Below, in pieces: positions 14,075 to 52,516 of a stretch of 64,000 bases of DNA. The stretch covers positions 4,419 to 68,418 of the forward strand of contig JAPOPM010000175.1 in assembly GCA_026712905.1 (NCBI GenBank), in the 5' to 3' direction. A model generated the notes under the pieces. That model searched no databases. It saw nothing but the letters and a program-made list of their open reading frames with translations, and was not told where the DNA came from. Source of the stretch: Deltaproteobacteria bacterium (GTDB lineage Bacteria > Desulfobacterota > Binatia > UBA9968 > JAJDTQ01). Numbering within the stretch: the stretch's first letter is position 1; each line of letters opens with the position of its first letter. Both the position numbers and the translations under genes were made by a program.

Positions 14075-14332
14075 TATGGAGTCCTCCCTCCGTCCATTCG
14101 CAACCCTATGGCTACTAATGTGCTAGATGTATGGATCATTTCTGCTCGGTGCTCCCGTATTTGTCAACCCAAGGAGGCGCTTTTCCCGACTCTCGCCCAT
14201 GGCAGCCCATGGCTTGGAAGGCGTTTCCACCGTCGGACCGCAAGACGTTACGGTCGGACACGCTCCAAACACCCAGATTGGAAACGGAAATACAGCCAGA
14301 TCAACGAGGTGCCAGGGCGTGCCGGGGCCGGA

Positions 14333-16729
14333 TCACTTCCCCGCCGCCTTGAGCGCCTGGTGGATCCTCTCGGCGGTGAGCGGAATGTCGCGCAGGCGCA
14401 CGCCCACGGCGTCCTCCAGCGCGTTGGCCACGGCGGCGGCCACGGTCAGGGCGCCGGTCTCGCCGATGCCCTTGGCGCCGAACGGGCCGTCCTTGTGGGG
14501 CACCTGCACCACGATGGGGTGGCAGGCGGCGGGCACGTCCTTGATGGACGCGATCTGGTAGTCCAGCAGGGAACCGTTGAGGAGCTGCCCGTCCTGGAAC
14601 ACCATCTGCTCGAACAGCGTCAGGCCCAGGTGCATGGTGGCCGCGCCCACGAGCTGCTGCTCGCAGTACTTGGGGTTGATGGCGGTGCCGGCGTCGCCCG
14701 CGGCGTGGAACTGCAGCACCTCCAGGCGGCCGGTCTCCAGGTCCACCTCGACTTCCACCGCGCTGGCCGAGGCGAACCAGTACTCGGTGCACTTGTCGGA
14801 CAGGCCGGTCTCGGGGTCCGTGGGCGTCACCACGGGCTGGCACAGGCCCTCCCCCACCATGGTGGTGCCGAGGCTGCCGAACTTGGCCATGAACGCCTCG
14901 GCGACGGTCATCCCCAACTCTTCGGCGCCGCGCACGAACACGCGGCCGTCGCGCGCTTCCAGGTCGGCGGCGTCGATCTCGAGCTTGCCGGCCACCGCCT
15001 CGAACAGTTCCGCCTTGACGTTGGCCGCGGCGGTGCGCACGGCGTTGCCCATGTGGTAGGTGGAGCGGCTGCCCGCGCTGATGGTGTCGTAGGGCGTGAC
15101 GTCGGTGTCGGGCTGGACCACGTGCACCTTGTCGAAGGAGATCCCCAGCTCCTCGGCCGCGATCTGCGACAGCAGGCTCTCGGAGCCCTGGCCCATCTCG
15201 ACGGTGCTGCTCAGCACGTTGGCGCTGCCGTCGGCATTGAGGATGACGATGGCCCCGGAGATGGACGGCGTGAGCACCGCCTTGACGCCGCAGGCGATGC
15301 CCTTGCCGCGGCGCTTGGTACCCGAGACGGTTTTCCCGGGCTGCTCCGTCCCCGCCGCCTCGGTTGTCTGTTGCGCCTCCTCCGGAAGAGGCGGCTCATT
15401 GCCAGGAGCCGCCGCCGTGCTGTCCCAGCCCACGGCGTCCGCCGCCCGCCGCACCGCTTCCTTCAGCCCGCAGGCATGGACCGGCGTCCCGGTGACGAAC
15501 AGGTCCCCCTCCTCCAGCGCGTGTTCGAGCCGGAACTCCACCGGGTCCGCGCCCAGGCCCCGGGCGACGATGTCCATCTGCGAGTCGTAGGCCCAGATGA
15601 CCTGGGGCACGCCGAAACCGCGAAACGGCCCGGCCGGCGGCTTGTTGGTGTAGACGCAATAGGAATCGATGGAGACGTTGGGGATCTTGTACGGCCCGGA
15701 GGAGGTGTAGCCCGACTTGTGAACGATGCGCGGACCGATCTCGGCGAAGGCGCCCGTGTCCCAGTAGACCTCGCACTTGCGCGCGGTCATGGCCGAGCCC
15801 TTGACCGCGGTCTTGAGCTTCACCACCACGCCGTGCTTGGTGACGGTCTGGAATTCCTCCTCGCGGCTCAGGCTGTACTTGACGGGCCGGCCCGTCCTCA
15901 TGGCCAGTATCGCCACGATCGGCTCGAGCTTGTTGTAGAGCTTGGCGCCGTAGCCGCCGCCCAGATAAGGCACCCGCACCCGGATGCGGTTCATTGGCAC
16001 GCCCAGCATGCGCGCCAGCTCCCCGCGCACGAAGGACGGCGACTGGCTGGCGGTGTGGATGTTGATGCGCCCGCCCTCGTCCACGTAGGCCAGCGACACG
16101 TGCGGCTCCATGGGAACGTGCTGGGCCGGCGGCGCCGTGAACACGTCCTCGAAGATGCGGTCGGCCTCGACGAAGGCCTTGTCCACGTCGCCCTTGCGCA
16201 GCTTGTAGTGGTAGCAGATGTTGGAGCGGTCGCCGGCCTTGACGTGGGCCAGGTCCGCGAACGCTCCGGAGGGGCGGATCTCGTCGTGGACGATGGGGGC
16301 GTCCGGCTTGATGGCGTCGAGCACGTCCCGCACCACCGGCAGCGGCTCGTATTCCACTTCCACGAGCTCCAGCGCCTCCTCCGCCGCGCGCCGGTTCTCC
16401 GCCGCCACCGCCACCACCTGCTCGCCTTCGTGGCGCACCCGGTCGATGGCCAGCACCGGCTGGTCCGCGAACGCCGGCCCGTGGTAGGGCGTGATGCCGG
16501 GCATGGCGGCGATGTCCGCGCCCGTAAGCACCGCGACGACACCCGGATGGACCTCGGCCCGGGACTTGTCGATGCGCACGATGTGCGCGTGCGGGTGTGG
16601 ACTCCGGAGCACCGCCACCTGCAGCAGCCCGGGCGGCTCCATGTTGCCCACGTGGAGCGCCCGCCCTGTCACCTTCTGGACGGCGTCCCGGCGGTCGACC
16701 GGCTTGCCGACGATGGAATAGTCCGCCAC
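14333..16729 (-). CDS. Xanthine dehydrogenase/aldehyde oxidase-family molybdopterin-binding large subunit (CoxL-like)
   Basis: 798 aa; Ald_Xan_dh N-terminal hammerhead plus molybdopterin-binding domains. GTG start 9 nt after the coxM-like stop. Confidence 0.85.
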   Translation of the reverse strand: MADYSIVGKPVDRRDAVQKVTGRALHVGNMEPPGLLQVAVLRSPHPHAHIVRIDKSRAEVHPGVVAVLTGADIAAMPGITPYHGPAFADQPVLAIDRVRHEGEQVVAVAAENRRAAEEALELVEVEYEPLPVVRDVLDAIKPDAPIVHDEIRPSGAFADLAHVKAGDRSNICYHYKLRKGDVDKAFVEADRIFEDVFTAPPAQHVPMEPHVSLAYVDEGGRINIHTASQSPSFVRGELARMLGVPMNRIRVRVPYLGGGYGAKLYNKLEPIVAILAMRTGRPVKYSLSREEEFQTVTKHGVVVKLKTAVKGSAMTARKCEVYWDTGAFAEIGPRIVHKSGYTSSGPYKIPNVSIDSYCVYTNKPPAGPFRGFGVPQVIWAYDSQMDIVARGLGADPVEFRLEHALEEGDLFVTGTPVHACGLKEAVRRAADAVGWDSTAAAPGNEPPLPEEAQQTTEAAGTEQPGKTVSGTKRRGKGIACGVKAVLTPSISGAIVILNADGSANVLSSTVEMGQGSESLLSQIAAEELGISFDKVHVVQPDTDVTPYDTISAGSRSTYHMGNAVRTAAANVKAELFEAVAGKLEIDAADLEARDGRVFVRGAEELGMTVAEAFMAKFGSLGTTMVGEGLCQPVVTPTDPETGLSDKCTEYWFASASAVEVEVDLETGRLEVLQFHAAGDAGTAINPKYCEQQLVGAATMHLGLTLFEQMVFQDGQLLNGSLLDYQIASIKDVPAACHPIVVQVPHKDGPFGAKGIGETGALTVAAAVANALEDAVGVRLRDIPLTAERIHQALKAAGK

Positions 16730-16738
16730 GCGATTACC

Positions 16739-17596
16739 TCACGACGCCGCCAAGGCGCTGAGCGTCCGCTTGATCCAAACCCGGGTCATTTCGCGCTTGT
16801 AGTCCGCGCTGCCGCGCAGGTCCGACACCGGGGAAATCTGCGGGTCGACGACGTCGCACACCGCGTCCCAAAGCTCTTCCGAACAATGCTCCCCACGGAA
16901 CCGGTCCAGCCCGGCGGCCAAGAGCGGCGCTTCCGCCACGCCGCCGAGGCCCAGCCGAAGCTCCCCAACGTCATCCCCATCCAGGGACAGCAACGCCGCC
17001 ACCCCGATGCACGGCCAGTCGTTGGCCGAGAGCGAGCTGAACCGCGAATACGCCGTCCGGGCCGCCGCGTCCAGGTGCGGCACGTGCACCTCCACCACGA
17101 TCTCGCCCGGCTCCAGCACCGTCTCGTACATGCCGCGGTAGAAGTCCTTGAGCGGGACCAGCCGCGTGCCCTCCCCCTTGGCCAGGACCACCTCCGCATC
17201 GAGAACCAGAAGCGCCGGCGGCGGGTCGAGCCGGTAGTCCGCATGGGCCAGATTCCCGCCCACGGAAGCCGTCTCCCGGATGCGCACGTTGCCCACGTGG
17301 CTGAACGCCTGTGCCAACGCGGGCGCACGGCGCTGCACCAGCGGCGAGCGCTCCACCGACCGGTGCGTTGCCATCGCGCCGATGCTCAGGCCATCGTCGT
17401 TGTCGGTGATTCGTTCGAGCCCCGGAATCGACTGCAGGTCCACCAAATGGGAGAAGCGCAACGCCCGCTGCTTCATCAGGATCACGAGCGTCGTGCCCCC
17501 GGCGATGGCCCGCGCCTCGTCGCCGTGTTCGAGAAGCATCTCGCTGGCTTCAGCCACGGAGCCGGGTTTCAGCAGGTCGAAAGCGGGAATGGTCAT
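16739..17596 (-). CDS. FAD-binding medium subunit of molybdenum hydroxylase (CoxM-like)
   Basis: FAD_binding_5/CO_deh_flav_C motifs (AIAGGTTLV). Start at the internal ATG (MTIPAFDLL); the track start is TTG. Confidence 0.8.
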   Translation of the reverse strand: MTIPAFDLLKPGSVAEASEMLLEHGDEARAIAGGTTLVILMKQRALRFSHLVDLQSIPGLERITDNDDGLSIGAMATHRSVERSPLVQRRAPALAQAFSHVGNVRIRETASVGGNLAHADYRLDPPPALLVLDAEVVLAKGEGTRLVPLKDFYRGMYETVLEPGEIVVEVHVPHLDAAARTAYSRFSSLSANDWPCIGVAALLSLDGDDVGELRLGLGGVAEAPLLAAGLDRFRGEHCSEELWDAVCDVVDPQISPVSDLRGSADYKREMTRVWIKRTLSALAAS

Positions 17597-19124: not shown

Positions 19125-19282
19125 CTCGAAACAGCGGGAATCCAGGCGGCCGGGGCGGAGCCAACGCCCCGAAACGTCATTCCCGCGGAAGCGGGAATCC
19201 AGGCGGGGTGGTGGGGCACTACAGCGGCGTTTTTCCGCCTCGCCACCCCTGTATTCCCGCTTCCGCGGGAATGACGATTCGC
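19125..19282. repeat. Composite REP/MITE-like intergenic repeat, copy A (core palindrome GTCATTCCCGCGGAAGCGGGAATCCAGG and its inverted copy)
   Basis: Direct sequence comparison. The same 28-bp core and flanking modules recur at 24.1, 28.7, 46.7-47.0, 50.7, 52.4, 58.2 and 59.0-59.2 kb. Confidence 0.8.
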
Positions 19283-19556: not shown

Positions 19557-20873
19557 GTGAAACGCGTGGCGGTCACTCTCGTCGTCCTGGCGGTCGCCGG
19601 CGGCGTGCTCTACTACCTGGGCATCGGGCCTCCGCTCGGCCTCGGGCCGTTTGAAATCGGCGCGGCCAAGGGTAAGCCCGAGCAGGGCAACCGCGGGCAG
19701 GGTAATTCCGGACAGCGCAACTCGGGACAGCGTCGCGGCGGCGGCCGCGCGGTCACCGTCAAGGCCGAGGCGGTTCGGGTGGGGGACGTCGAGGCGACAT
19801 TGAGCTACGTGGGCTCGTTGGCGGCCAACGCGGCGGTCACCATCGCGCCCAAGACCTCGGGCCGGGTCGCCAAGCTGTTCGTCACCGTGGGCGAGCGCGT
19901 CAAGGAGGGCCAACTGCTGGGGCAGCTCGCGAAGGATGAGCTCACGGAGGAGTTGCGCGAGGCGCAGGCGTCGCTTCGGGTGGCCCAAGCCACGCTCAAG
20001 GGCCGCCAGGCGGAACTGGAGAACATCAAACGGCGCCAGCAGAACGTCAAGGTGCTGGCGGGCAAACAACTCGTGTCCCGTGAGGAGGTGAACAACCTGG
20101 AGACCCAGGTGCTGTCCGCCGAGTCCCAGGTGGAGCTGACCAAGGCCCAGATGCTGCAGATGCAGGCGCGACTGGACAACGCCCGCATTCGTCTGCGGCA
20201 CACCGAGGTCCGCTCGCCGTTCGCGGGTCACGTGAGCCGCCGCATGGTGGACCGCGGCGCCCTCGTGAGTGCCAGCACTCCCTTGTTCGAGGTCGTGGAC
20301 ATCGACCGGGTCAAGGTCGGCATTGCCGTGGTGGAGGGGGACTACCGCAAGGTTTCCCTGGGACAGCCGGTCGCCGTCAAGGTCGACGCCTACCCGGACA
20401 AGCGCTTCAACGGCACCATCACGCGCATGTCGCCGGTCCTCGACCCGCAGACGCGCACGGGCGAGGTGGAGATCGAGCTCGACAATCCCGGCGGGGCGCT
20501 CAAGCCCGGCATGTTCGCGCGTACGAACATCGTGGTGGAGCGCAAACGCGGCGTTCTGATGGTGCCGGAAGCCTCGCCGGTGAAGTCCGGCGAGGGGTAC
20601 GGCGTGTTCCGGCTGACGGACGAAGGCAGCAAGGTCGAACGCGTGGAAGTCACGCCGGGCCTGAACAACGGCGGTTGGGTGGAGGTGACGGGAGACCTGC
20701 GCAAGGGGGACCGGGTTGTCACCCTGGGCAGCAGCCTCGTGCGCCACGGCCAGCAAATCCGGGTTGCCGGCGACGGCCCGCGCGCGGGTGCCCGCCGTGG
20801 GCGGCGGGGGGCCGGGCGGGAAGGCCGGGCGGGCGGCGGTCGCGGCCGCGCGGAAAGGACGCAAAACCGATGA
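19557..20873 (+). CDS. Efflux RND transporter periplasmic adaptor subunit (HlyD/AcrA family)
   Basis: 438 aa; signal/TM segment, coiled-coil and beta-barrel membrane-fusion-protein motifs. GTG start; stop overlaps the RND start (ATGA). Confidence 0.8.
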   Translation: MKRVAVTLVVLAVAGGVLYYLGIGPPLGLGPFEIGAAKGKPEQGNRGQGNSGQRNSGQRRGGGRAVTVKAEAVRVGDVEATLSYVGSLAANAAVTIAPKTSGRVAKLFVTVGERVKEGQLLGQLAKDELTEELREAQASLRVAQATLKGRQAELENIKRRQQNVKVLAGKQLVSREEVNNLETQVLSAESQVELTKAQMLQMQARLDNARIRLRHTEVRSPFAGHVSRRMVDRGALVSASTPLFEVVDIDRVKVGIAVVEGDYRKVSLGQPVAVKVDAYPDKRFNGTITRMSPVLDPQTRTGEVEIELDNPGGALKPGMFARTNIVVERKRGVLMVPEASPVKSGEGYGVFRLTDEGSKVERVEVTPGLNNGGWVEVTGDLRKGDRVVTLGSSLVRHGQQIRVAGDGPRAGARRGRRGAGREGRAGGGRGRAERTQNR

Positions 20874-23800
20874 ATCTCACGGCGCTTTGCCTCAGACGTC
20901 CGGTGGCCACCTGCATGGCCGTCATGATCGTCGTGATCCTCGGGGTGATCTCGTTTCTCAAGATCCCGGTGGACCTCTTGCCCGAGATCACCTTCCCCAG
21001 GGTCACCGTCTCCACCACGTACCCCAACGTAGGACCGCTGGAGATGGAGACTCTGGTGACGGTGCCCGTCGAAAAGGCGGTGAGCTCCGTGGAAGGCGTG
21101 GAGGACATCACCTCCGTGTCCGTGGAAGGCCGCAGCCAGGTCCGGGTGGCCTTCGGCTGGAGCAAGGACCTGGAAGTGGCGGTGAGCGACGTGCGCGCAC
21201 GCATCGACCGCATCCGTGACGACCTTCCCCCGGGAGCCGAGGCCCCGGTGGTCTCGAAGTACGACGTCAACGCGTCGCCGATCATGTTCATCGGCGTATC
21301 GGGTCAGATGGACCCGGTGGCGCTGCGGACCTTCGTCGAGCAGGAGGTGCGTTATCGACTGGAACGGGTCGCCGGCGTGGCCGCGGCGGACATCCGTGGC
21401 GGACTGGAGCGCGAGATCCAGGTCCAGCTTTCCCTGGACCGGCTCAAGGCCTTCAATCTCTCGGCGGACCAGGTCATCCGGGCGCTGCGGGCGAGCAACA
21501 TCAACCTGCCGGCCGGTAGCGTCGGCCGGGCGCACCTGGAGGTATCGGTACGGACCCTGGGCGAATTCACCGACCTGAATCAACTGCGCAACACGGTGGT
21601 GGCCACCCGCGACGGCACCCCCATCTACGTCAAGGACCTCGGAGAGGTGAAGGACTCCTTCAAGGACCTGAACCACGCGGTGCGGATCCACGGCTCCCAC
21701 GCCGTGGTCATCTCCCTGCTGCGTCAGCCTTCCGCCAACACCATCACGGTGGTGGACCGCGTGAAGCAGGCCATCGAGGGCATCAATCAGGAACTCCCCA
21801 CCATCAAGGTGACCGTGCTGCGCGAGAATGCGCATTACATTCGCAACGCGGTGGACAACGTGACCCTGGCCGCGGCCTGGGGCGGCATGCTGGCCCTGGC
21901 CGTGCTGTTGTTCTTCCTGCGCAGCCTGCGCAGCACCGTGGTCATCGCCACGGCCATTCCCATCTCCATCGTGGCCACGTTCGCGCTCATGTTCTTCCAG
22001 GGCTTCAGCATCAACATCATCTCCTTCGGCGGCCTCGCCCTGGGGATCGGGCTCTTGCTGGACAACTCCGTGGTGGTGCTGGAGAACATCTACCGGCACC
22101 ACGAGACCGGCACCGACCGCCGGGAGGCCGTGCTCACGGGCACGCGGGAGGTGGCGGGAGCCATCACCGCGTCCACGTTGACCACGGTGGTGGTGTTTCT
22201 GCCGCTGATCTTCGTCCCCGGCTCCGCGGGCATCCTCTTCAAACAGCTCGCGTGGGTGGTGTTCTTCTCGCTCGCGGCCTCCCTGATGGTGGCCCTGACC
22301 GTGGTTCCGGTGCTGGCGCACCATCTCCTGGGGCGGCCGGGCCATGCGGGCCCAGGGGGCTTCCTGTCGCGTCTCATGCGCGCGGGCTCAAGTTCCCAAA
22401 GCGGTCTGGACCATGCCTACCAGGGACTGTTGCGCTGGAGCCTGCGCCATCGCTTCACCGTGGTGGCGGCGGCCGCGGTCCTGCTCTCCAGCAGCCTGTT
22501 CCTCTACCAGGGCATCGGCAGCGAGTTCATGCCCCGCGCCGACGAGGGCAACGTGTTGATCCTCGCGGAAACCGAAGCGGGTTCGAAGATCGAGGAAACG
22601 GACCGCACTTTCCGGCAACTCGAGGCCATCGTGAACCAGGAGGTCACAGAGCCCTACCGGAACTTCACGCACTTCGGCCAGTTCGGCTGGCGCGCCCGGG
22701 GCAAGAACAACGGGCACGTACACATTTGGCTGGGGTCCAGGAATACCCGGGAACGGTCCGACCAGGACATCGTCCGGGCCTTGCGGCGACGGGTCGGCGA
22801 GGTCCCCGGGGTGCGCGCCCGCGTGCGCGCAAGCTCCGGGCTGTGGATCTTCCGGCGCCTGGGATTCACCGACAACGACAACCTCGACGTGAAGGTGCGC
22901 GGTCACGACCTGGGCCAACTTCAGCGCATCTCCCGGCAGGTCAAGAACGCCATGGAGGGGGTTGACGGCATCGCGGGCGTGCGCATCAGCCGGCAGGCCG
23001 GACAGCCCGAAATGGGAATTCGCGTGGATCGGGAGCGCGCGGCGAGCCTCGGCATACCGGTGGAGACCATCGCCCGCGGCCTGCAAGCGAGCCTGGGCGG
23101 CACCCGGGCGACCTTCTACCGCGAGGGCGGCAACGAATACGACGTGCGCGTCCGGCTCGGCGACGACGACCGCGCCGACCTGAGCGCCCTGCTGGATCAG
23201 AGCGTCTCCGACGGCTCGGGCCGGGTGCTGTCGCTCAAGAACCTGGTCCGGCTGGAGGAACGCCGCGGACCCATGTCGATCCAGCGCCTCAACCAGGAGC
23301 GGGTGGTGTCCATCTCCGGCGAAGTCTCGGGACGCGACATGGCCGGGGCCGTGGCCGACCTGCAGGCAGCGCTGGGACAGATCCCGCTGCCGCAAGGCAT
23401 GGTCCTCCAGGTCGGCGGGGACTTCGAGGAACAGCAGAAGGCCTTCGGCGAACTGCGGATCGGCCTGCTCCTGGCCTTGATCATGGTCTACATGGTCATG
23501 GCGGGCCAGTTCGAGCGCCTGATCGATCCGTTCGTGATCATGTTCGCGGTTCCCTTCGCCGCCATCGGCGTACTGGCGTCGCTTCACGTCACCGGCACGA
23601 CCTTCAACATCAACTCCTACATCGGCATCATCCTGCTGGTGGGCATCGTCGTGAACAACGCCATCGTGCTGGTGGACTACATCAACCTCAAGATGCGCGA
23701 GGGAAACCTGAGCGTCGTCGACGCGGTGGTCCTCGCGGGCCGCACCCGTCTGCGACCGATCCTCATGACGACCCTCACCACGGTCCTCGCGCTGGTGCCG

Positions 23801-24034
23801 CTGGCACTGGCATGGGGCGAGGGCGGCGAGATTCAGGCACCCATGGCCCGCGTCGTGATCGGCGGACTGATCACCTCCATGCTGGTGACCCTGGTGCTGA
23901 TCCCGGTGCTCTACGCCACCGTACGCGAACGGGCGTGGCGGAAAGCCGAGGCCCGTGAGGCGGCGGACGCGACCGGGCCAGTACAGGATCCGGCGGCGTT
24001 GCAGTCGGACCGTGTCCGGGAGAACCCGCTGTAG
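20870..24034 (+). CDS. RND efflux transporter permease (AcrB/HAE1 family)
   Basis: About 1054 aa from the internal ATG (MNLTALCLRRPVATCMAV...), with a 12-TM AcrB-like layout. The track ORF's first 65 residues are read-through of the adaptor gene's 3' end. Confidence 0.9.
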   Translation: MNLTALCLRRPVATCMAVMIVVILGVISFLKIPVDLLPEITFPRVTVSTTYPNVGPLEMETLVTVPVEKAVSSVEGVEDITSVSVEGRSQVRVAFGWSKDLEVAVSDVRARIDRIRDDLPPGAEAPVVSKYDVNASPIMFIGVSGQMDPVALRTFVEQEVRYRLERVAGVAAADIRGGLEREIQVQLSLDRLKAFNLSADQVIRALRASNINLPAGSVGRAHLEVSVRTLGEFTDLNQLRNTVVATRDGTPIYVKDLGEVKDSFKDLNHAVRIHGSHAVVISLLRQPSANTITVVDRVKQAIEGINQELPTIKVTVLRENAHYIRNAVDNVTLAAAWGGMLALAVLLFFLRSLRSTVVIATAIPISIVATFALMFFQGFSINIISFGGLALGIGLLLDNSVVVLENIYRHHETGTDRREAVLTGTREVAGAITASTLTTVVVFLPLIFVPGSAGILFKQLAWVVFFSLAASLMVALTVVPVLAHHLLGRPGHAGPGGFLSRLMRAGSSSQSGLDHAYQGLLRWSLRHRFTVVAAAAVLLSSSLFLYQGIGSEFMPRADEGNVLILAETEAGSKIEETDRTFRQLEAIVNQEVTEPYRNFTHFGQFGWRARGKNNGHVHIWLGSRNTRERSDQDIVRALRRRVGEVPGVRARVRASSGLWIFRRLGFTDNDNLDVKVRGHDLGQLQRISRQVKNAMEGVDGIAGVRISRQAGQPEMGIRVDRERAASLGIPVETIARGLQASLGGTRATFYREGGNEYDVRVRLGDDDRADLSALLDQSVSDGSGRVLSLKNLVRLEERRGPMSIQRLNQERVVSISGEVSGRDMAGAVADLQAALGQIPLPQGMVLQVGGDFEEQQKAFGELRIGLLLALIMVYMVMAGQFERLIDPFVIMFAVPFAAIGVLASLHVTGTTFNINSYIGIILLVGIVVNNAIVLVDYINLKMREGNLSVVDAVVLAGRTRLRPILMTTLTTVLALVPLALAWGEGGEIQAPMARVVIGGLITSMLVTLVLIPVLYATVRERAWRKAEAREAADATGPVQDPAALQSDRVRENPL

Positions 24035-24104
24035 GAGCTTGCGCCGTGGAAAGCGGGTCGGTTGAATTGTCATGCCCTGTTGCGCGCGTCATTTCCACGC
24101 AACA

Positions 24105-24305
24105 GACCGTGTCAAGACTCCGCTCGGATGAGAATTGGCACCAATGCCCCGAGTCGTCATTCCCGCGAAAGCTTGCCCTCGACCCCGATCGGGGGCGGGA
24201 ATCCCTGCCCCACCCCGCCTGGATTCCGGCTTCCGCGGGGATGACGTATTCGTCACGTCTCCGCCTGGCGGGTTTTGACACGGCCTGTTCCGCGGGAATG
24301 ACGAA
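24105..24305. repeat. Composite REP/MITE-like repeat, copy B
   Basis: Contains the tgtcaagactccgct module, the gtcattcccgcgaaagc core, the cccgatcgggggcgggaatcc module and an inverted core. Confidence 0.75.
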
Positions 24306-24325
24306 CAAGGGCCTCCCCGTCGATC

Positions 24326-25465
24326 ATGATTGAATCGCTTGGTATCGCCCACCTCTTCGAACTCTCGCGCACGGAAGCGACGCTGGGGTTCTTTACCCCG
24401 CTGGTGATCTTCGCCGCGTTCTTTCTGGCGCAGATGGCCCTGCCGGCGAGGCGGGTTCCCGGCTACGTCATCGATCCGCGGACCGGCGCACCCCGCAGCT
24501 ATCGCCTGAACGGCCTTCTGGTATTCGCCATCGCGCTCGTCGTGTGGGCCTTCGAGCTCACTGGGATGCCGCGCGACTGGTTCTACCGGTCCTCGATTTA
24601 CGCCGTGGCCGGCGGGACCGTCGTCGCCACCCTCGTTACCATCATCGCGGTGTTCAGCCAGCCGCAAGGCAGGGTAAGGAACCCGCTGCTGGCGCTGTGG
24701 TTCGGTCGGGCCCAGGAGCTGGCGTTCCTGAACCAACGCTTCGACGTAAAGATGTACCTCTATGTGGTCGGCGGGGCGATGCTGTCCCTCAACGCCCTTT
24801 CCGGGGCCGTGTACCACTACGAGATCTTTGGCGAAGACTCCAATCCGGGCGTCTTCCTGTACGCGGCGTTCTTCACGTTCTACATACTGGACTACTTCAT
24901 CTTCGAGCGCGTCCAGCTATACACCTACGACCTGATCCATGAGAATCTTGGCTTCAAGTTGTTCTGGGGTTGCTTCGTCGTATACGGGTGGCTGTTCATT
25001 CTCCCGTTGTGGGGCATGGCCGCTTACCCGGATCCGGGATTCTCGCCGGCCTGGACGTATGTCTGGCTCATCGGAACGGCCGCGCTGTTCCTCCTCGGGT
25101 GGGGCATCTCGCGCGGCGCCAACATGCAAAAGTACACGTTCAAGCGTTGGCCCGACCGGAAGTTTCTCGGGCTCATCGAGCCTGTCTTCATCGAGGCCGG
25201 CGACCGCAAGATCCTGTGCAGCGGCCTATGGGGTGTCGCCCGCCACTTCAACTACCTGGGCGAGGGTTTCCTCGCCCTGTCCATCGCCCTGTCGTTCGGC
25301 TACTTCACCAATCCCTGGGCCTGGACCTACTTTGCCTTCATCGTCTCGATGTTCGTCTACCGTCAACGCGATGACGACATGCACTGTGCCGGAAAATACG
25401 GCGCCGACAAGTGGGCGGAGTATCAGGCAAGGGTGAAGTACCGGATCTGTCCGGGCATCTATTGA
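24326..25465 (+). CDS. ERG4/ERG24-family sterol reductase homolog (DHCR7/DHCR14/TM7SF2-like polytopic membrane reductase)
   Basis: C-terminal GLWGVARHFNYLGEG...YRQRDDDMHCAGKYGADKWAEYQARVKYRICPGIY matches the sterol-reductase family signature (RHPNYxGD...RDxxxCxxKYGxxWxxYxxxVPYRIIPxIY). Eight or more predicted TM segments. Confidence 0.7.
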   Translation: MIESLGIAHLFELSRTEATLGFFTPLVIFAAFFLAQMALPARRVPGYVIDPRTGAPRSYRLNGLLVFAIALVVWAFELTGMPRDWFYRSSIYAVAGGTVVATLVTIIAVFSQPQGRVRNPLLALWFGRAQELAFLNQRFDVKMYLYVVGGAMLSLNALSGAVYHYEIFGEDSNPGVFLYAAFFTFYILDYFIFERVQLYTYDLIHENLGFKLFWGCFVVYGWLFILPLWGMAAYPDPGFSPAWTYVWLIGTAALFLLGWGISRGANMQKYTFKRWPDRKFLGLIEPVFIEAGDRKILCSGLWGVARHFNYLGEGFLALSIALSFGYFTNPWAWTYFAFIVSMFVYRQRDDDMHCAGKYGADKWAEYQARVKYRICPGIY

Positions 25466-25496: not shown

Positions 25497-26969
25497 TCAC
25501 GCGCCCCCGGTGAGCCGTTGGTCCACGTGCCACATGGCGACGCAGTCGTCCTCGTTGTAGCGGACGGCCTTTTCGGCCAGGGAGCGGTCGCCGGTGTCGA
25601 CGGCGTCCCAGTAGCAGAGCAGCGCCTCGTAGGCGCCGAATCCCTGCTGGCGCCAGTTGAAGCCCAAGGCCGGGGCGACGCTCTTGATGGAGAAGCGCGG
25701 CACGGGCAGGTAGACGGCGTCCTGGATGCATCGCTTCAGGTCGACGCAGGAGCCCATGAGACGCGCCAGCCGTCCCTCCAGCCGCGGCCAGCGGCGCATG
25801 ACCGCCTTCATCTGCCACACCTCGTAGTCGGTCCAGTGATACAGGCGCACGGCTTCGAGGTCGTCGCCCACGTAGTCGAGGAATTCTTCGAAGATCTCCG
25901 CCTCGTCTTCGGGGCCACGGGCCAGGAACCTGACGAACTGGTCGCGGGAGCCGTCCCAGCAGCCGATGAGGTAGACGTGGGGCGGCATGGTGGGATGCGT
26001 GTCGTCGGAGGTCTCGAAGTCGAAGTAGAGTAGCCGTCTCGCCCTGGGAATCCGCAACTCGCGGCCGGGTTTGGGGACGGGTTGCCCCGTCCTGTAGCTC
26101 TGGGCCACGTGGTAGGCGGTGGCGCCGTGGTGCGGTCCCAGGATCTCCTCGGTCTCACCAAGGGAACTTGTCCACAGTTCATCCACATTGTGGATACCGG
26201 CGGCGCGGAGCTTGGCCCGCTCGGGCGCCCGCACCCCGGCCAGCAGCACCAGGTCGCGGCGCTCGTGCACCAGCCGGTTGCCGTACGCGCGCCAGGGGGA
26301 GTCGGTGACGTCGGGGGGTCTGCCCGGCTCCGGCTCCTCCACCGTACGGTCCCGCAGCGCGCACCAGCGCGCGGCTACGTCGTCCATCCTCTTCCCGAAG
26401 CCCGAGACATCCACCGGACGGACCTCTTCCCGCAGGGCCACGGTCACGCGTTCCGGCATGTAGCCCTGGACGGCGCCCACGGTGCGGTTGTAGAAGGCCG
26501 CCTGGAGCACGTAGGCGTCCCGAAGCTTGCGCGCGCGCTTTATCTCGATGACGCGATAGTGGTAGGGGCCGAGGTCCGAGGCGTGGCTGTCGTCCCGCAC
26601 CAAGAGGTCGCCGCGGCCGTAGACGTCCCGGCCGAGGTCCCACAGTTGCGGCTGGTGGATGGCGGGAACGCCCTCCAGCATGGCCCGAAGGGTGCGGACG
26701 AGGGCCTGGTGGCCGAAGTCGGGCCGGATGGCCAGGACGCCCGGGTAATGCGCGGCCACCCAGGCATCCTCGTGCTCGACGCCCCGGCGGTAGCGCATCT
26801 GCTCGTAGCGGCCGATCTCGTTTACCGCCTCGGCCTTGGGTGCATGGTGCTGGCACCAAACCCAGAACGGGTCCCGCAGAACCTTGTCCACCAGGGACGG
26901 GCGCAAGCGGGAGCGGCCATGGATCCTCTGGCCGGCGGTGGCGCGGTCGAGCAGCGCGCGCAGCCGCAC
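25497..26969 (-). CDS. RecB-family nuclease, TM0106-type (N-terminal PD-(D/E)XK/Cas4-like region plus C-terminal RNase H-like exonuclease domain)
   Basis: YFDFETS motif and a YHWTDYE region in the C-terminal half; conserved Cys (WVWCQHH) near the N-terminus. Start uncertain (GTG at 26967-26969 or TTG about 60 nt downstream). The first ~230 residues of track ORF 25497..27665 are low-complexity read-through over the AbgB-like gene. Confidence 0.55.
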   Translation of the reverse strand: MRLRALLDRATAGQRIHGRSRLRPSLVDKVLRDPFWVWCQHHAPKAEAVNEIGRYEQMRYRRGVEHEDAWVAAHYPGVLAIRPDFGHQALVRTLRAMLEGVPAIHQPQLWDLGRDVYGRGDLLVRDDSHASDLGPYHYRVIEIKRARKLRDAYVLQAAFYNRTVGAVQGYMPERVTVALREEVRPVDVSGFGKRMDDVAARWCALRDRTVEEPEPGRPPDVTDSPWRAYGNRLVHERRDLVLLAGVRAPERAKLRAAGIHNVDELWTSSLGETEEILGPHHGATAYHVAQSYRTGQPVPKPGRELRIPRARRLLYFDFETSDDTHPTMPPHVYLIGCWDGSRDQFVRFLARGPEDEAEIFEEFLDYVGDDLEAVRLYHWTDYEVWQMKAVMRRWPRLEGRLARLMGSCVDLKRCIQDAVYLPVPRFSIKSVAPALGFNWRQQGFGAYEALLCYWDAVDTGDRSLAEKAVRYNEDDCVAMWHVDQRLTGGA

Positions 26970-26992: not shown

Positions 26993-28438
26993 TTAGCTGA
27001 ATGCGGGCTTCTCCTTGGGATAGTGCGCTTCCATGGCCGAGCGGTAGCGCTCCATGAGGATCCGGTTGAGCTCCAGCGGCGGCTGCTGGTCGTCGGGCAG
27101 CAGCGGGCGGTACTCCACGTCGCCGATCTCCTCCTTGAAGGTCTCCTTGGCCCGGGCCACCAGTTGCGGGTCCATCAGCAGGTCGACGGCCGACGCGGCC
27201 ATGGTCTTGGCGCCGGCCACCGCGCCCTTGTGGGCCACGGTGGTGGCCAGGGACACCCCCGCGCCCCAGTGGTGGTAGGCGATGCCCGGGATGTTGGACG
27301 GGAAATTCACCACGCCCGAGGGCACCACCCAGCACACGTCGCCCGAGTCGTTGGCGGACACGGACTGCACCGCCTCCCGGAGCTGGGCCACCTGTGTGGG
27401 CATTCCCGTGGCCTTGACGTTGACCTTGGCCTGGACGTCGGTGACGAGTTTCTGTTCGGCGTCGCTCCACCGCGGCATGCCCACGGCCTCGATGTTCTGC
27501 TGGATCACCTCCGCCAGCACGCGGTTGCAGCGGGTGGGCGCCACCGCGCTCAGCACGTTCACCGAGTAGGAAGTGTCGGTCATGGTGGCCGCTCCCTGGG
27601 CGACGCGCTTGGCCTTCTCGAACAAAGCGCGGGCCTTCTCGGCCGTGGCCTCGCGGAAGAACCACCAGATGGTCGAAGTGTTGGGGATGACGTTGGGCTG
27701 GTCGCCGCCGTTGGTGATGACCCGGTGGCTACGCTGGGAGGGCTCCAGGTGTTCCCGAAGCTTGTCCCAGCCGATGTCCATCAGCACCGTCGCGTCCACC
27801 GCGTCGCGCGCGTTCCACGGCGAGGTGGCGGCGTGGGCGCTCTCGCCCTTGAAGGTGAACTCGGCCGAGATGAGCGCGTACTGGCGCAGACCGTACACCG
27901 TGCCGAGGTTGGAGCCGATGTGGTCGTGCAGCGCCACGTCCACGTCCTTGAAATAGCCGTCGCGCACGAAGTACGGCCGGCTCACGAGCTGCTCCTCGGC
28001 CGGGGCGCCGTAGACCCGGAGCGTCCCCTGGATGTCGAACTGCTCCATGGTCTTCTTGACCGCCACCGCCGCCCCGGTCATCACCGCAGCGTTGACGTTG
28101 TGCCCTTCGGTGTGCCCCGGCGCACCGTCCACGATGGCCTTTTGCTCGGCCACGCCCGGCATCTGCGAGCTCGACGGCGTGGCATCGAACTCCGTGTGCA
28201 GCGCCACCACCGGCTTGCCCGACCCGTAGGTGGCGATGAACGCCGTGGGCATCCCCGAGATGCCCCGCTCGATCTCGAAGCCCGCCCGCTCCAGGATCTC
28301 GGTCATGAGCCCAGTGGTGCGGTATTCCTGCATCCCCAGCTCGGCGAAGTAGAAGATATTGTCGCCGAGGAGCGCGATGTTGTTCCGGTTCTCCTCGACC
28401 GCGTCGATGACGAACTGTTTCTGTTTCGAATCCTGCAT
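26993..28438 (-). CDS. M20-family amidohydrolase, AbgB-like (aminobenzoyl-glutamate utilization protein B family)
   Basis: 481 aa from the internal ATG (MQDSKQKQFVIDAVEE...), preceded by GGGGAGGAAACC. Strong similarity pattern to AbgB (GKPVVALHTEFDA, HAATSPWNARDAVDATVLM, VAHKGAVAGAKTMAAS). The track N-terminal 155 residues run through repeat copy C. Confidence 0.8.
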   Translation of the reverse strand: MQDSKQKQFVIDAVEENRNNIALLGDNIFYFAELGMQEYRTTGLMTEILERAGFEIERGISGMPTAFIATYGSGKPVVALHTEFDATPSSSQMPGVAEQKAIVDGAPGHTEGHNVNAAVMTGAAVAVKKTMEQFDIQGTLRVYGAPAEEQLVSRPYFVRDGYFKDVDVALHDHIGSNLGTVYGLRQYALISAEFTFKGESAHAATSPWNARDAVDATVLMDIGWDKLREHLEPSQRSHRVITNGGDQPNVIPNTSTIWWFFREATAEKARALFEKAKRVAQGAATMTDTSYSVNVLSAVAPTRCNRVLAEVIQQNIEAVGMPRWSDAEQKLVTDVQAKVNVKATGMPTQVAQLREAVQSVSANDSGDVCWVVPSGVVNFPSNIPGIAYHHWGAGVSLATTVAHKGAVAGAKTMAASAVDLLMDPQLVARAKETFKEEIGDVEYRPLLPDDQQPPLELNRILMERYRSAMEAHYPKEKPAFS

Positions 28439-28661: not shown

Positions 28662-28878
28662 ACTCCCGAAACGTCATTCCCGCGGAAGCTTGCCCTCGAC
28701 CCCGATCGGGGGCGGGAATCCAGGAGGGGTGAGGCGGGGAATACGGCCGCTTGGCCCCTCCCCGCCCCTGGATTCCCGCCCCCGATCGGGGTCGAGGGCA
28801 AGCTTTCGCGGGAATGACGTTTCGGGGCGTTGGTACTTCGGGGGTATTGACACAGCTTGTACCGCCGGAATGACGGAG
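28662..28878. repeat. Composite REP/MITE-like repeat, copy C (near-palindromic overall)
   Basis: aaacgtcattcccgcggaagcttgccctcgaccccgatcgggggcgggaatccagg ... cctggattcccgcccccgatcggggtcgagggcaagctttcgcgggaatgacgttt; the two halves are inverted copies. Confidence 0.8.
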
Positions 28879-46674: not shown

Positions 46675-47000
46675 CCTATACGTCATTCCCGCGAAACAGG
46701 CTGTGTCAACAACTCCATCCGAGAGAGGCACCCACGCCCCCAAATCGTCATTCCCGCGGAAGCGGCTGTGTCAAAACGTCGTCCGGACAAGAGTTGGCGC
46801 CAACCCCCCGAATCGTCATTCCCGCGGAAGCGGGAATCCAGGGGCGGGGAGGGGCTGAAACGAGCCTGTTTCCCCGCCTCACCCCTCCTGGATTCCCGCG
46901 TCCGCGGGAATGACGATTTGGGGGCGTGGGTGCCTATTCTCATCCAACCGGAGTTTTGACACAGTCCGGGAAGCGGGAATCCAGGGGCGGGGCGGTGAGC
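46675..47000. repeat. Composite REP/MITE-like repeat cluster, copy D (about 325 bp; three core units plus tgtcaaaac modules)
   Basis: Three copies of gtcattcccgcg[ga]a[ga]c, with a full gtcattcccgcggaagcgggaatccaggggcgggg ... ccctcctggattcccgcgtccgcgggaatgacg inverted pair. Confidence 0.8.
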
Positions 47001-50689: not shown

Positions 50690-50806
50690 ACCCCGAATCC
50701 GTCATTCCCGCGGAAGCGGGAATCCAGGGGTGGAGAGGGGTCCAGCGGCCGTGGGTCCTCCCCTCACCCCGCCTGGATTCCCGCTTTCGCGGGAATGACT
50801 GTCGGG
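50690..50806. repeat. Composite REP/MITE-like repeat, copy E
   Basis: ccgtcattcccgcggaagcgggaatccaggggtgg ... ccgcctggattcccgctttcgcgggaatgac inverted pair. Confidence 0.8.
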
Positions 50807-52339: not shown

Positions 52340-52516
52340 TTGGACATTGCCTTTGTCATTCCAGGCTATGTCAAGACTCCGCTTGGCCACGCAACGGCAC
52401 CGCCGTACGAGTCGTCATTCCCGCGGAAGCGGGAAGGTGGATTCCCGCTTCCGCGGGAATGACGACTCGGGGCGTTGGTGTCAATTCTCATCCAAGCGGA
52501 GTTTTGACACAGCCTG
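52340..52516. repeat. Composite REP/MITE-like repeat, copy F
   Basis: tgtcaagactccgcttggccacg module, gtcattcccgcggaagcgggaaggtggattcccgcttccgcgggaatgacg inverted pair, gagttttgacacagcc module. Confidence 0.8.

What the first reader, a model, noticed from the sequence alone, without database searches (positions are those of the whole stretch)
24326..25465. Bacterial homolog of eukaryotic ERG4/ERG24 sterol reductases (DHCR7/TM7SF2-like) downstream of an RND efflux pump
The C-terminus carries the near-complete sterol-reductase family signature (LWGVARHFNYLGEG ... YRQRDDDMHCAGKYGADKWAEYQARVKYRICPGIY), and the protein is a polytopic membrane protein of eukaryote-like length (379 aa). Such reductases are rare in bacteria; known examples are a few sterol-producing or host-associated lineages. 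The gene follows an AcrA/AcrB-like pair and is separated from it by a REP-like repeat. Its substrate here is unknown (sterol, hopanoid or other polyprenoid double-bond reduction).
Basis: partly seen in the sequence, partly recalled or inferred. Interest (0 to 1): 0.6.

Follow-up and report, generated by a model that had tools for sequence, protein, structure and literature searches.

The report
Sponge-symbiont sterol-reductase-family gene cassette
This gene encodes an intact membrane reductase of the sterol-reductase family. It belongs to an uncharacterised branch that has been passed, almost unchanged, between many unrelated bacterial phyla, apparently sponge-associated ones. It most likely edits sterols, possibly host-derived, rather than building them from scratch.

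Summary
The ORF at 24326-25465 (+, 379 aa) is real. It is a confident ERG4/ERG24 family member (Pfam 111.9 bits; AF2 model TM 0.80 to MaSR1/4QUV), and the catalytic Tyr and NADPH-contact residues are intact.

It is not an orthologue of any characterised sterol reductase. Identity to DHCR7, TM7SF2, ERG24 and MaSR1 is 26-33%, and ERG4 gives only 37 bits. It is only 29% identical to the C14 reductase of the published sponge-symbiont sterol operon (CSG). All of these references form a bootstrap-100 clade that excludes it.

Its own clade is tight: 78-88% aa identity in 80 MAG loci labelled as about 11 phyla. Four of those loci are verified Ircinia sponge MAGs. Median dS is 0.64, dN/dS is about 0.16, GC3 tracks each host (r=0.92), and no flanking gene is shared. 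This indicates cross-phylum HGT of a single-gene cassette under strong purifying selection.

In 14 loci (Dadabacteria-type and one Dehalococcoidia) the gene sits with sterol methyltransferase genes. GPP34-P450, MMPL/sterol-sensing and, in two loci, Rieske/KshA genes also lie there, which supports a sterol substrate.

In the window, whose host is a sponge-associated Binatia by RadA, the gene is an orphan. The RND-pump adjacency is specific to this lineage. Which double bond is reduced is unknown; a side-chain bond is my leading guess.

The parts
24326..25465 (+). 379-aa ERG4/ERG24-family membrane reductase, a member of the tight '379-aa clade'
   Evidence: ORF and translation. Pfam PF01222 111.9 bits. 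4QUV E=8.7e-34. AF2 pLDDT 89.9, pTM 0.90. Foldseek TM 0.80 to 4QUV. The same protein sequence is found on 13 metagenome contigs.
24878..24898 (+). FYILDYF motif containing Tyr186, which aligns with the proposed catalytic Tyr241 of MaSR1 and Tyr257 of ScERG24
   Evidence: Mapping: Tyr in 81/81 clade members and in all six references. Residue roles are taken from PMC12489058. Coordinates.
25226..25267 (+). LWGVARHFNYLGEG motif. His307, Asn309 (= MaSR1 N359 / LBR N547) and Tyr310 are cofactor contacts. Glu313 stands in place of the proposed catalytic Asp363.
   Evidence: H, N, Y and E are invariant in 81/81. Glu also occurs at this position in the sponge-symbiont CSG C14 reductase. Roles from PMC4951196 and PMC12489058.
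25358..25462 (+). C-terminal signature YRQRDDDMHCAGKYG...PGIY, with Arg346 (= MaSR1 R395 / LBR R583), Asp350, Lys357 and Tyr358
   Evidence: conserved in 80/81 clade members (one gap) and in all references. Coordinates.
24035..24325 (.). Intergenic gap between the RND gene and the reductase, filled with copies of a dispersed REP/MITE-like palindromic repeat. It replaces the conserved 73-nt upstream block seen in other lineages.
   Evidence: 23 motif matches against 5.25 expected. nhmmer finds no upstream-block match in the window copy. No sigma70-like or terminator-like site lies in the gap.
19557..24034 (+). HlyD-type membrane-fusion protein (19557-20873) and AcrB-type RND transporter (20870-24034). 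They lie upstream on the same strand. The adjacency is not conserved, and co-transcription is possible but not shown.
   Evidence: Pfam. Gene calls on the identical contig L001. Absent from all 80 related loci. No terminator-like site before the reductase.
25497..26969 (-). Convergent RNase_H_2-superfamily gene whose stop lies 31 nt from the reductase stop. This is context only, and it leaves no room for the conserved 53-nt downstream block.

Best explanation
The ORF encodes a functional, NADPH-dependent, polytopic inner-membrane C=C reductase with the ERG4/ERG24 (MaSR1) fold.

Shown: it belongs to a tight 379-aa clade. That clade is a separate paralogue from the C14 reductase of bacterial sterol-synthesis operons and from DHCR7, ERG24 and ERG4. 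The clade has spread by horizontal transfer as a single-gene unit among bacteria labelled as about 11 phyla, several of them verified sponge symbionts. It is held under strong purifying selection.

Inferred: the substrate is a sterol. In lineages without their own sterol operon, such as the window's sponge-associated Binatia, the enzyme would act on sterols taken from the host or the community after they partition into the membrane. By analogy with MaSR1 and ERG24, hydride would come from cytoplasmic NADPH and the proton from the Tyr186/Glu313 pair.

Leading guess, weakly supported: the bond reduced is a side-chain double bond left by sterol methyltransferases, that is delta24(28), delta24(25) or delta25(27). 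A ring bond such as delta7 is not excluded.
For: Family, fold and cofactor site. In one search, Tyr186, Asn266, Lys269, His307, Asn309, Tyr310, Arg346, Asp350, Lys357 and Tyr358 are conserved in 80-81 of 81 copies.

Separate paralogue: identity to the references is 25-33% and 29% to the CSG reductase taken from Kelly et al.'s supplementary FASTA, which is itself closest to MaSR1. The references form a bootstrap-100 clade excluding it. The clade plus P0127 has bootstrap 100, and adding P0129 gives 98-99. Both paralogues coexist in MAGs jk18x22bins.41 and p16x34bins.64, and the gene is present in MAGs marked CSG-negative.

HGT and selection: 80 loci at 78-88% aa identity. Median nt identity is 0.82, median dS 0.64, dN/dS 0.16. 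GC3 against flank GC gives r=0.92. No neighbour is shared. Non-coding ends are conserved across labels.

Sterol link: 14 loci have 1-2 SMT genes (Sterol_MT_C) within about 5 kb. GPP34-P450, MMPL/sterol-sensing and, in two loci, Rieske/KshA_C genes accompany them, in three different gene orders and under two phylum labels. A 43% relative sits between SDR and Rieske/KshA_C genes.

No own pathway nearby: no OSC, CYP51 or SMT in the 64-kb window, and no OSC or true CYP51 in any locus.

Precedent: non-producers keeping DHCR7-type enzymes to process acquired sterols (PMC2817430).

Host and habitat: RadA is 86-95% identical to Binatia/'Deltaproteobacteria' MAGs and 87% to a contig in the Geodia barretti assembly. 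Four loci are verified Ircinia MAGs.
Against: There is no biochemical datum for any member of this clade or of the surrounding short-form radiation.

66 of 80 loci, including the window, have no sterol gene within 10 kb.

Several substrate-side positions differ from all six references: ScERG24 Asp287 (sometimes modelled contacting the 3-OH) becomes Gly/Cys, Phe328 becomes Ser, Val291 becomes Tyr and Trp381 becomes Ile. A non-sterol or differently oriented substrate is therefore possible.

The deep phylogeny is neighbour-joining only and is unresolved below the clade.

The sponge association rests partly on MAG names, and only four loci were verified against a published table. Some NCBI taxon labels are inconsistent with synteny.

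The gene content of the window's genome outside these 64 kb is unknown.
Confidence: 0.6

Rival explanations
1. It is simply the C14 sterol reductase (ERG24/TM7SF2 orthologue) of a de novo bacterial sterol pathway, as automatic annotation suggests.
For: The best PDB hit is the delta14-sterol reductase MaSR1. JGI names relatives of the Monosiga homologue 'delta14-sterol reductase'. Kelly et al. report TM7SF2/ERG24-annotated genes enriched in sponge symbionts.
Against: Identity is only 29-33% to MaSR1 and to the genuine operon-encoded reductase. The protein is excluded from the bootstrap-100 clade of characterised enzymes. It is never next to CYP51 or OSC in 80 loci or in the window. It coexists with the operon reductase in the same MAGs and persists in MAGs marked as lacking the operon. 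The substrate-side residues are remodelled.
Confidence: 0.1
2. It is a DHCR7-like delta7 reductase that converts host delta5,7-sterols to delta5-sterols.
For: The WGVARHFNY stretch is identical to human DHCR7 (P0379; alignment). Rieske/KshA_C oxygenases lie in two of the sterol-gene loci; from memory, that family includes cholesterol 7-desaturases. Non-producers retaining DHCR7 is a known pattern (PMC2817430).
Against: Identity to DHCR7 is 28%, no closer than to the C14 reductases. DHCR7 groups with the other references and excludes this clade. The most frequent sterol-gene neighbour is an SMT, which is a side-chain enzyme.
Confidence: 0.13
3. It reduces a non-sterol lipid, such as a hopanoid, polyprenoid, carotenoid or a sponge-specific lipid, and the sterol-gene neighbours in some lineages are coincidental.
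For: The clade lies in an uncharacterised short-form radiation of bacterial and protist proteins. The Asp that may contact the sterol 3-OH is lost. Most loci have no sterol genes nearby.
Against: To my knowledge every characterised ERG4/ERG24 member acts on sterols. Linkage with SMT, MMPL/sterol-sensing, GPP34-P450 and, in two loci, Rieske/KshA genes recurs in three gene orders and two phylum labels. A 43% relative is embedded among genes of the Rieske and SDR types used in bacterial C4 demethylation.
Confidence: 0.15
4. It is an artefact: mis-binned or contaminating DNA, either from one abundant organism or from the sponge host, which gives a false impression of cross-phylum sharing.
For: All carriers are MAGs. 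Some NCBI labels are inconsistent with synteny.
Against: The copies differ (73.6-99.5% aa identity) and their GC3 (0.61-0.97) tracks local flank GC (r=0.92). Many lie inside chromosomes or contigs of 1.5-6.8 Mb with unrelated flanking genes. There are no introns, and the contigs have bacterial gene organisation.
Confidence: 0.02

Closest known systems
MaSR1 (Methylomicrobium alcaliphilum delta14-sterol reductase, PDB 4QUV)
   Same: Same fold (TM 0.80 over 376 columns). Same cofactor-contact residues and the same catalytic Tyr. Bacterial and NADPH-dependent.
   Different: Identity is 33% by BLASTP and 28% in the structural alignment. The window protein is about 48 residues shorter at the N-terminus. 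The catalytic acid is Glu, not Asp. Pocket residues differ. MaSR1 groups with the canonical enzymes and excludes this clade.
C14 reductase of the sponge-symbiont 'cluster of steroid genes' (CSG: ERG24-CYP51-SMO/OSC; Kelly et al. 2022, PMC9531527)
   Same: Same family and apparently the same habitat (sponge symbionts of many phyla). HGT was inferred for it too, with similar purifying selection (their omega 0.13, mine about 0.16). Glu also occupies the catalytic-acid position.
   Different: Only 29% identical. The CSG enzyme is operon-encoded next to CYP51 and OSC, whereas this gene is never next to them. The two coexist in the same MAGs on different contigs. KEGG-style annotation would probably lump the two together.
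Human DHCR7 and yeast or human C14 reductases (ERG24, TM7SF2)
   Same: ERG4/ERG24 family signatures. The WGVARHFNY stretch is identical to DHCR7.
   Different: Identity is 26-30%. These enzymes are 418-475 aa and fall in the bootstrap-100 reference clade that excludes this protein.
Yeast ERG4 (delta24(28) reductase) and the bacterial SMT-ERG4 gene pairs in lake and hot-spring metagenomes (Brown et al. 2023, PMC10070321)
   Same: The genomic logic is the same: an ERG4/ERG24-family reductase placed beside an SMT.
   Different: ERG4 is the most distant reference (37 bits, 25% over 199 aa). Brown's pairs contain true ERG4 homologues (34-41% identical to yeast ERG4), whereas the sponge loci use this unrelated branch.
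Eukaryote-like sterol reductases of intracellular bacteria (Coxiella delta24 reductase; chlamydial reductases in sponges, PMC9666466)
   Same: These are bacteria that are not thought to make sterols yet carry a sterol reductase, presumably to act on host sterols.
   Different: Those enzymes are described as ERG4-type or DHCR7-type acquisitions from eukaryotes. This clade's nearest relatives are bacterial orphans (P0127 at 73%, P0129 at 51%), and the closest named eukaryotic relative found (Monosiga brevicollis) is 44% identical in the library search. I could not obtain the Coxiella sequences for direct comparison.
Short (about 380-420 aa) uncharacterised ERG4/ERG24 proteins of protists (Monosiga brevicollis MONBRDRAFT_29161, chytrids, Aphanomyces, Polarella, Ectocarpus)
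   Same: Similar length. They also lie outside the canonical reference clade.
   Different: Identity is 44% in the library search and 31-38% for the named protist members of alignment A1. They are eukaryotic, with introns. Their function is unknown, so they give no functional transfer.

Membership tests
ERG4/ERG24 sterol-reductase family (Pfam PF01222) | Profile match above the curated threshold across the catalytic C-terminal half | tested here: met
   111.9 bits against a cutoff of 27, E=4.3e-32, residues 29-379 matching profile positions 78-432.
ERG4/ERG24 sterol-reductase family (Pfam PF01222) | MaSR1-type polytopic fold | tested here: met
   AF2 pLDDT 89.9, pTM 0.90. Foldseek TM 0.80, rmsd 3.4 A to 4QUV. 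ICMT and SRD5A give only 0.35-0.38.
ERG4/ERG24 sterol-reductase family (Pfam PF01222) | Catalytic Tyr plus acidic partner, and the NADPH-contact residues (MaSR1 Y241, D363, N359, R395; ScERG24 N332, K335, H368, Y371, D410, K417, Y418) | tested here: met
   All are conserved in 80-81 of 81 clade members. The acid is Glu313 instead of Asp, as in the CSG reductase, and ScERG24 R339 is Lys273.
ERG4/ERG24 sterol-reductase family (Pfam PF01222) | NADPH-dependent reduction of a sterol C=C bond | not testable with these tools
   Needs an enzyme assay. The only support here is genomic linkage to SMT, sterol-sensing transporter, P450 and Rieske genes in 14 loci.
C14 sterol reductase subfamily (ERG24 / TM7SF2 / MaSR1 / CSG reductase) | Orthology: groups with characterised C14 reductases in a tree | tested here: not met
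   The references form a bootstrap-100 clade that excludes the window clade. Identity is 26-33%. Caveat: neighbour-joining only.
C14 sterol reductase subfamily (ERG24 / TM7SF2 / MaSR1 / CSG reductase) | Genomic association with CYP51 (14-demethylase) and oxidosqualene cyclase in bacteria | tested here: not met
   tblastn with CSG CYP51 and OSC probes gives no OSC hit and only generic (about 20% identity) P450 hits in the window and all loci.
DHCR7 (delta7 reductase) subfamily | Orthology with DHCR7/DWF5 | tested here: not met
   28% identity, 89.7 bits, no closer than to the C14 reductases. DHCR7 lies in the reference clade that excludes this protein.
ERG4 (delta24(28) reductase) subfamily | Orthology with ERG4 | tested here: not met
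   37.4 bits, 25% over 199 aa, the weakest of all references. This bears on membership only; a side-chain specificity that evolved independently is not excluded.
ICMT / DUF1295 / SRD5A relatives | Better profile or fold match to these than to ERG4/ERG24 | tested here: not met
   DUF1295 scores 27.4 bits against 111.9 for ERG4_ERG24. ICMT TM is 0.35 and SRD5A 0.35-0.38.
Sponge-symbiont 'cluster of steroid genes' (Kelly et al. 2022) | Being the reductase gene of the ERG24-CYP51-LSS operon | tested here: not met
   29% identity to the reductase of CSG jk18x11bins.24. In MAG jk18x22bins.41 the 379-aa gene lies on a different contig from that MAG's CSG.

The most novel reading that the evidence does not exclude
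The 379-aa clade is a previously unrecognised, horizontally mobile sterol-tailoring enzyme that marks the sponge-associated lifestyle. Specifically, it would be the missing bacterial side-chain reductase that completes saturated 24-alkyl sterols, including 24-isopropyl, after the symbiont SMTs that Brown et al. showed make 24-isopropyl-dienols. If so, bacteria could finish or edit the very sterols used as 'sponge' biomarkers. The cassette would also be a shared adaptation that lets phylogenetically unrelated bacteria live in sterol-rich sponge tissue.
Probability: 0.2. Interest if true: 0.85.

Novelty: new variant of a known kind. Interest (0 to 1): 0.6.

Why it matters
It is already published that ERG24-annotated genes are enriched in sponge symbionts. 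That signal appears to conflate two different enzymes. One is the operon-encoded C14 reductase. The other is this orphan, an uncharacterised paralogue.

This paralogue persists in symbiont MAGs that are marked as lacking the sterol operon. It stays 78-88% identical across about 11 phylum labels and moves as a single gene. That pattern is what a niche-defining trait looks like.

If it acts on host or community sterols, it points to sterol editing as a common requirement of life inside sponges. If it reduces SMT products, it bears directly on whether bacteria can complete 24-isopropylcholesterol-type sterols, which is central to the Neoproterozoic sponge-biomarker debate. It also offers a simple, testable entry point: one 1.1-kb gene with commercially available or published substrates.

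Tried and rejected
1. RND-pump linkage. None of the 80 related loci has the window's MFP, RND, RNase_H_2 or 481-aa genes, so this is rejected as a functional association.
2. Identity with the published CSG reductase. I extracted a CSG from Kelly et al.'s supplementary FASTA and found 29% identity. Rejected.
3. OSC, CYP51 and SMT in the window. tblastn with probes and Pfam on about 40 window genes found none.
4. Phage or plasmid vector. No viral contig encodes a relative. The only plasmid hit is a 29% Planktothrix homologue.
5. Structured RNA in the conserved 3' block. RNAalifold gives -0.83 kcal/mol with 4 pairs and one compensatory change, so it is not supported. Rfam finds nothing above threshold around L024.
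6. The conserved 5' block as a proven promoter. Only 9 of 34 copies pass the strict sigma70 rule, although all at the same position and above shuffles. I kept this as an inference only.
7. Deep placement of the clade. NJ bootstraps below the clade are under 50%, and no ML tool was available.
8. Tying sample accessions (JGI 3300002222 and 3300002150, the SAMN ids, GCA_009835375) to a publication. There were no hits.
9. The Gilk 2010 (Coxiella) and Li 2015 (MaSR1) papers are not held. Residue roles were taken from PMC4951196 and PMC12489058 instead.
10. My first regular expressions for P450 and for the flank elements were too strict. I replaced them with tblastn and nhmmer.
Full report
OBSERVATION. 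The ORF at 24326-25465 (+) exists as described: ATG start, 379 codons, and both quoted C-terminal motifs. Pfam places it in ERG4_ERG24 (PF01222) at 111.9 bits against a curated cutoff of 27, with only a weak DUF1295 match. NCBIfam has no model for it. The best solved structure by sequence is MaSR1, the delta14-sterol reductase of Methylomicrobium alcaliphilum (4QUV, E=8.7e-34). An AlphaFold2 model built on a 62-sequence alignment is confident (pLDDT 89.9, pTM 0.90). It superposes on 4QUV with TM 0.80 over 376 columns, whereas ICMT and steroid 5-alpha-reductases reach only 0.35-0.38. At 379 aa the protein is shorter than the canonical enzymes (418-475 aa); the match begins at MaSR1 residue 76.

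IS IT A WORKING ENZYME? Residue roles were taken from the literature: MaSR1 Tyr241 and Asp363 as proposed catalytic residues, and Asn359 and Arg395 (= LBR N547 and R583) as NADPH contacts, from PMC12489058 and PMC4951196. Mapped onto the window protein and 80 clade relatives, the catalytic Tyr (Tyr186) is invariant. The acid is Glu313 in all 81 copies, and Glu also occupies this position in the sponge-symbiont operon reductase. Asn266, Lys269, His307, Asn309, Tyr310, Arg346, Asp350, Lys357 and Tyr358 are conserved in 79-81 of 81. The cofactor machinery is therefore intact. Several substrate-side positions that are identical or nearly so in all six references are replaced throughout the clade: ScERG24 Asp287 becomes Gly/Cys (Cys216 in the window), Phe328 becomes Ser262, Val291 becomes Tyr220 and Trp381 becomes Ile320. 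I read this as a remodelled substrate pocket. That reading is an inference.

WHERE ELSE IS IT? The protein database returns 1,041 clusters at E<=1e-10. The best 120 are all at least 79% identical, and nearly all are exactly 379 aa. A scan of one genome per species found 483 stretches encoding relatives. The best 80 loci (78-88% identity) are all MAGs. They are labelled Binatia, Thermodesulfobacteriota/Deltaproteobacteria, Dadabacteria, Nitrospirota, Latescibacterota, Gemmatimonadota, Acidobacteriota, Chloroflexota, Alphaproteobacteria, Nitrospinota and Actinomycetota. Four of these loci (L004, L018, L033, L074) are MAGs listed in Kelly et al. 2022 Table S1 as Ircinia sponge symbionts, with GTDB classifications Binatota and Defluviicoccus. 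Other records carry names such as Spongia_Bin9 or come from 'ENGE20' metagenome samples. The sponge association of the remainder is inferred from naming, and I could not verify it.

HORIZONTAL TRANSFER. Four independent results support HGT.
(i) Across 81 copies, median nucleotide identity is 0.82 and median dS is 0.64. Only 7.5% of pairs exceed dS=1, and median dN/dS is 0.156. Synonymous sites would be saturated had the copies diverged with their phyla.
(ii) Gene GC3 spans 0.61-0.97 and tracks the GC of each host's flanks (r=0.92). The copies are therefore resident and compositionally adapted, not contaminants.
(iii) All-against-all clustering of flanking ORFs finds no neighbour shared beyond 16 loci. 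A Pfam census of 102 immediate neighbours yields 145 families, led by dnaX, peroxidase and metE.
(iv) About 73 nt upstream and about 53 nt downstream of the ORF are conserved between differently labelled lineages. nhmmer at E<=1e-3 detects the upstream block in 34 of 81 loci and the downstream block in 26 of 81.
As a rough yardstick, the window's RadA falls to 67-71% identity for nearly all hits outside its own sponge-associated Binatia group. The gene tree also mixes labels: a Nitrospirales copy (L009, 88%) is as close to the window as any Binatia copy. No viral contig or plasmid carries a close relative, so the vector is unknown. DDE or IS110 transposases flank a few copies.

NOT THE PUBLISHED REDUCTASE. 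Kelly et al. (PMC9531527) reported TM7SF2/ERG24, CYP51 and LSS 'clusters of steroid genes' (CSGs) in Ircinia symbionts of 10 phyla, with HGT and omega=0.13 for the reductase. I translated the reductase of a CSG from their supplementary FASTA. It is 344 aa, only 29% identical to the window protein, and closest to MaSR1 at 39%. Four canonical references were written from memory and accepted only because an exact-match look-up returned them under the expected names: DHCR7_HUMAN, TM7SF2, ERG24_YEAST and yeast ERG4. The window protein is 26-33% identical to DHCR7, TM7SF2, ERG24 and MaSR1, and scores only 37 bits against ERG4. In a bootstrapped NJ tree of 185 family members, all characterised references plus the CSG reductase form a clade with bootstrap 100 that excludes the window clade. 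The window clade plus P0127 (73%) has bootstrap 100, and adding P0129 (51%) gives 98-99. Deeper nodes are unresolved. In the 50%-identity library the clade collapses to essentially one representative. The next full-length relatives are at 51%, 44% and 43%. The 44% relative is Monosiga brevicollis MONBRDRAFT_29161, an intron-containing uncharacterised protein. The two paralogues coexist in MAGs jk18x22bins.41 and p16x34bins.64. The 379-aa gene is also present in 92-94%-complete Binatia MAGs marked as having no CSG. I found no paper that distinguishes this clade.

CONTEXT THAT POINTS TO STEROLS. Most copies are orphans. In 14 loci, however, there are one or two sterol methyltransferase genes (Sterol_MT_C) within about 5 kb.
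- Dadabacteria type (L092-L094): amine-oxidase flavoprotein <- GPP34-P450 <- | reductase -> | <- SMT | 448-aa protein -> LolA-like -> MMPL/sterol-sensing transporter -> beta-oxidation genes.
- L067: IS110 transposase, reductase, MMPL, Rieske/KshA_C, SMT.
- L082, a 3.8-Mb Dehalococcoidia chromosome: reductase, Rieske/KshA_C, GPP34-P450, SMT, MMPL/sterol-sensing/Patched-SSD.
So largely the same gene set occurs in three orders and under two phylum labels, which argues for functional coupling. A 43% relative (P0137) sits between SDRs and a Rieske/KshA_C gene. These are the enzyme types used for bacterial C4 demethylation (sdmA/sdmB; Brown et al. 2023). Brown et al. showed that sponge-symbiont SMTs make 24-methylene, 24-ethylidene and 24-isopropyl dienols. 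Their sponge clusters contain only the C14-type reductase, while lake and hot-spring clusters pair the SMT with a true ERG4. A reductase to saturate the side chain is therefore an open slot in the sponge systems.

THE WINDOW ITSELF. RadA (47011-48375, -) is 86-95% identical to 'Deltaproteobacteria' MAG proteins. One hit, at 89%, lies on a 4,663,458-bp contig, the same length as the Binatia chromosome OY762897.2 (locus L060). Another, at 87%, lies on a bacterial contig in the Geodia barretti sponge assembly. The host is therefore a sponge-associated Binatia. The 64 kb hold ordinary chromosomal genes: sulfatase, TctA/TctC, peptide ABC transporter, two xanthine-dehydrogenase-family sets, DinB, HemE and luciferase-like monooxygenases. 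There is no cyclase, squalene synthase, CYP51 or SMT. The MFP-RND pair upstream is not found beside any other copy. The window copy has lost both conserved non-coding blocks. Its 5' side is occupied by a dispersed REP/MITE-like repeat, and its 3' end is 31 nt from a convergent gene. No promoter-like or terminator-like site separates it from the RND gene, so read-through from the pump operon is possible but unproven.

MECHANISM AND RIVALS.
Shown: an intact ERG4/ERG24-fold reductase with a conserved NADPH site; a distinct paralogue; cross-phylum HGT; strong purifying selection.
Inferred (about 0.7): the substrate is a sterol. In CSG-negative hosts such as close relatives of the window's Binatia, that sterol would be acquired rather than made. 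The precedent is non-producers keeping DHCR7-type enzymes (PMC2817430) and chlamydial or Coxiella reductases.
Leading guess (about 0.3): the bond is a side-chain olefin left by SMTs.
Rivals: C14 reductase (0.10), delta7 reductase (0.13), non-sterol lipid (0.15), artefact (0.02).

LIMITS. There is no biochemistry. The phylogeny is NJ only. MAG taxon labels are imperfect: L019, labelled 'Thermodesulfobacteriota', is syntenic with Binatia loci, and L012 and L013 share flanks. Habitat was verified for only a few loci. I could not examine the rest of the window's genome.

VERDICT. It is not a rare DHCR7/TM7SF2-like gene tied to an efflux pump. It is an uncharacterised, horizontally mobile paralogue shared almost unchanged by many apparently sponge-associated phyla, with a testable link to sterol side-chain chemistry.

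Noticed in passing
window 19177-19274, 24157-24301, 28674-28817, 46683-46913, 50702-50798, 52415-52462, 59070-59168: A dispersed REP/MITE-like palindromic repeat (core TCATTCCCGCGGAAGC) occurs 23 times against 5.25 expected. The copies are mostly inverted pairs in intergenic gaps. One cluster lies just upstream of the MFP-RND pair, one between RND and the reductase, and one after the two genes downstream of the reductase.
   Followed up: partly
related loci, e.g. L024:9925-10000 and 11141-11195; L077, L052, L016, L009, L061: The reductase ORF travels with conserved non-coding ends across phylum labels. The roughly 73-nt upstream block reads TTGACC, 17 nt, CATAAT, the palindrome TGACCACGTCA, then GGAG..AAGGGG. 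It is detected in 34 of 81 loci, and the strict sigma70 rule passes in 9 of 34, always at -61/-62. The roughly 53-nt downstream block is detected in 26 of 81 loci and has no supported RNA structure. The window copy has neither block.
   Followed up: yes
L059:7700-9718 (-), L082:12803-14854 (+), L092:7626-9644 (-): Cytochrome P450 fused to an N-terminal GPP34/GOLPH3 domain (672-683 aa). The fusion recurs next to the reductase and SMT genes in Dadabacteria-type and Dehalococcoidia loci, and some loci carry up to three P450 hits. This architecture was not examined further.
   Followed up: partly
L047 and L048 (both on CAXXCU010000001.1, about 2.1 Mb apart): One MAG contig carries two copies of the reductase. 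SMT is at identical locus coordinates in both copies (14123-15121), which suggests a duplicated segment of several kb.
   Followed up: no
L019 vs L026/L027/L033; L012 vs L013: NCBI taxon labels conflict with synteny. The 'Thermodesulfobacteriota' locus L019 shares 80-95% identical flanks with Binatia loci. 'Latescibacterota' L012 and 'Gemmatimonadaceae' L013 share a 94% identical downstream flank. Counts of phyla should therefore be conservative.
   Followed up: partly
alignment A1; P0146 and its relatives: There is a large group of short (about 380-420 aa) uncharacterised ERG4/ERG24 proteins in protists (Monosiga, chytrids, Aphanomyces, Polarella, Ectocarpus). In the 62-sequence alignment, the column of the proposed catalytic Tyr (window Tyr186) is not among the invariant or 90%-conserved columns, whereas Tyr190 is invariant.
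   Followed up: no
L085:2293-10133 (locus of P0137, a 43% relative): A different bacterial cluster: sulfotransferase, three SDRs, Polyketide_cyc2, an ERG4/ERG24 reductase and a Rieske/KshA_C oxygenase, with a DUF1329/TP_0789-like gene nearby. It is possibly a sterol-modifying, perhaps sulfating, locus.
   Followed up: no
L067:7770-9116 (-); three loci in the census: An IS110-family transposase lies about 0.9 kb upstream of the reductase in L067, and the same gene cluster includes L071. DDE_Tnp_1 transposases flank the gene in three other loci. These are possible but unproven agents of mobility.
   Followed up: no
window 14333-17596 (-) and 53182-56401 (-): There are two separate xanthine-dehydrogenase/CO-dehydrogenase-family gene sets (MoCo-binding plus FAD-binding subunits) within 64 kb. 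A sulfatase (845-2353) and TctA/TctC transporters are also present. From memory, such gene types are often reported as abundant in sponge symbionts.
   Followed up: no
window 26993-28438 (-), 58233-58907 (-), 61660-62712 (-): Three ORFs with good coding statistics (481, 224 and 350 aa) have no Pfam match at E<=1e-5. The 481-aa gene lies two genes downstream of the reductase and is absent from all related loci.
   Followed up: no
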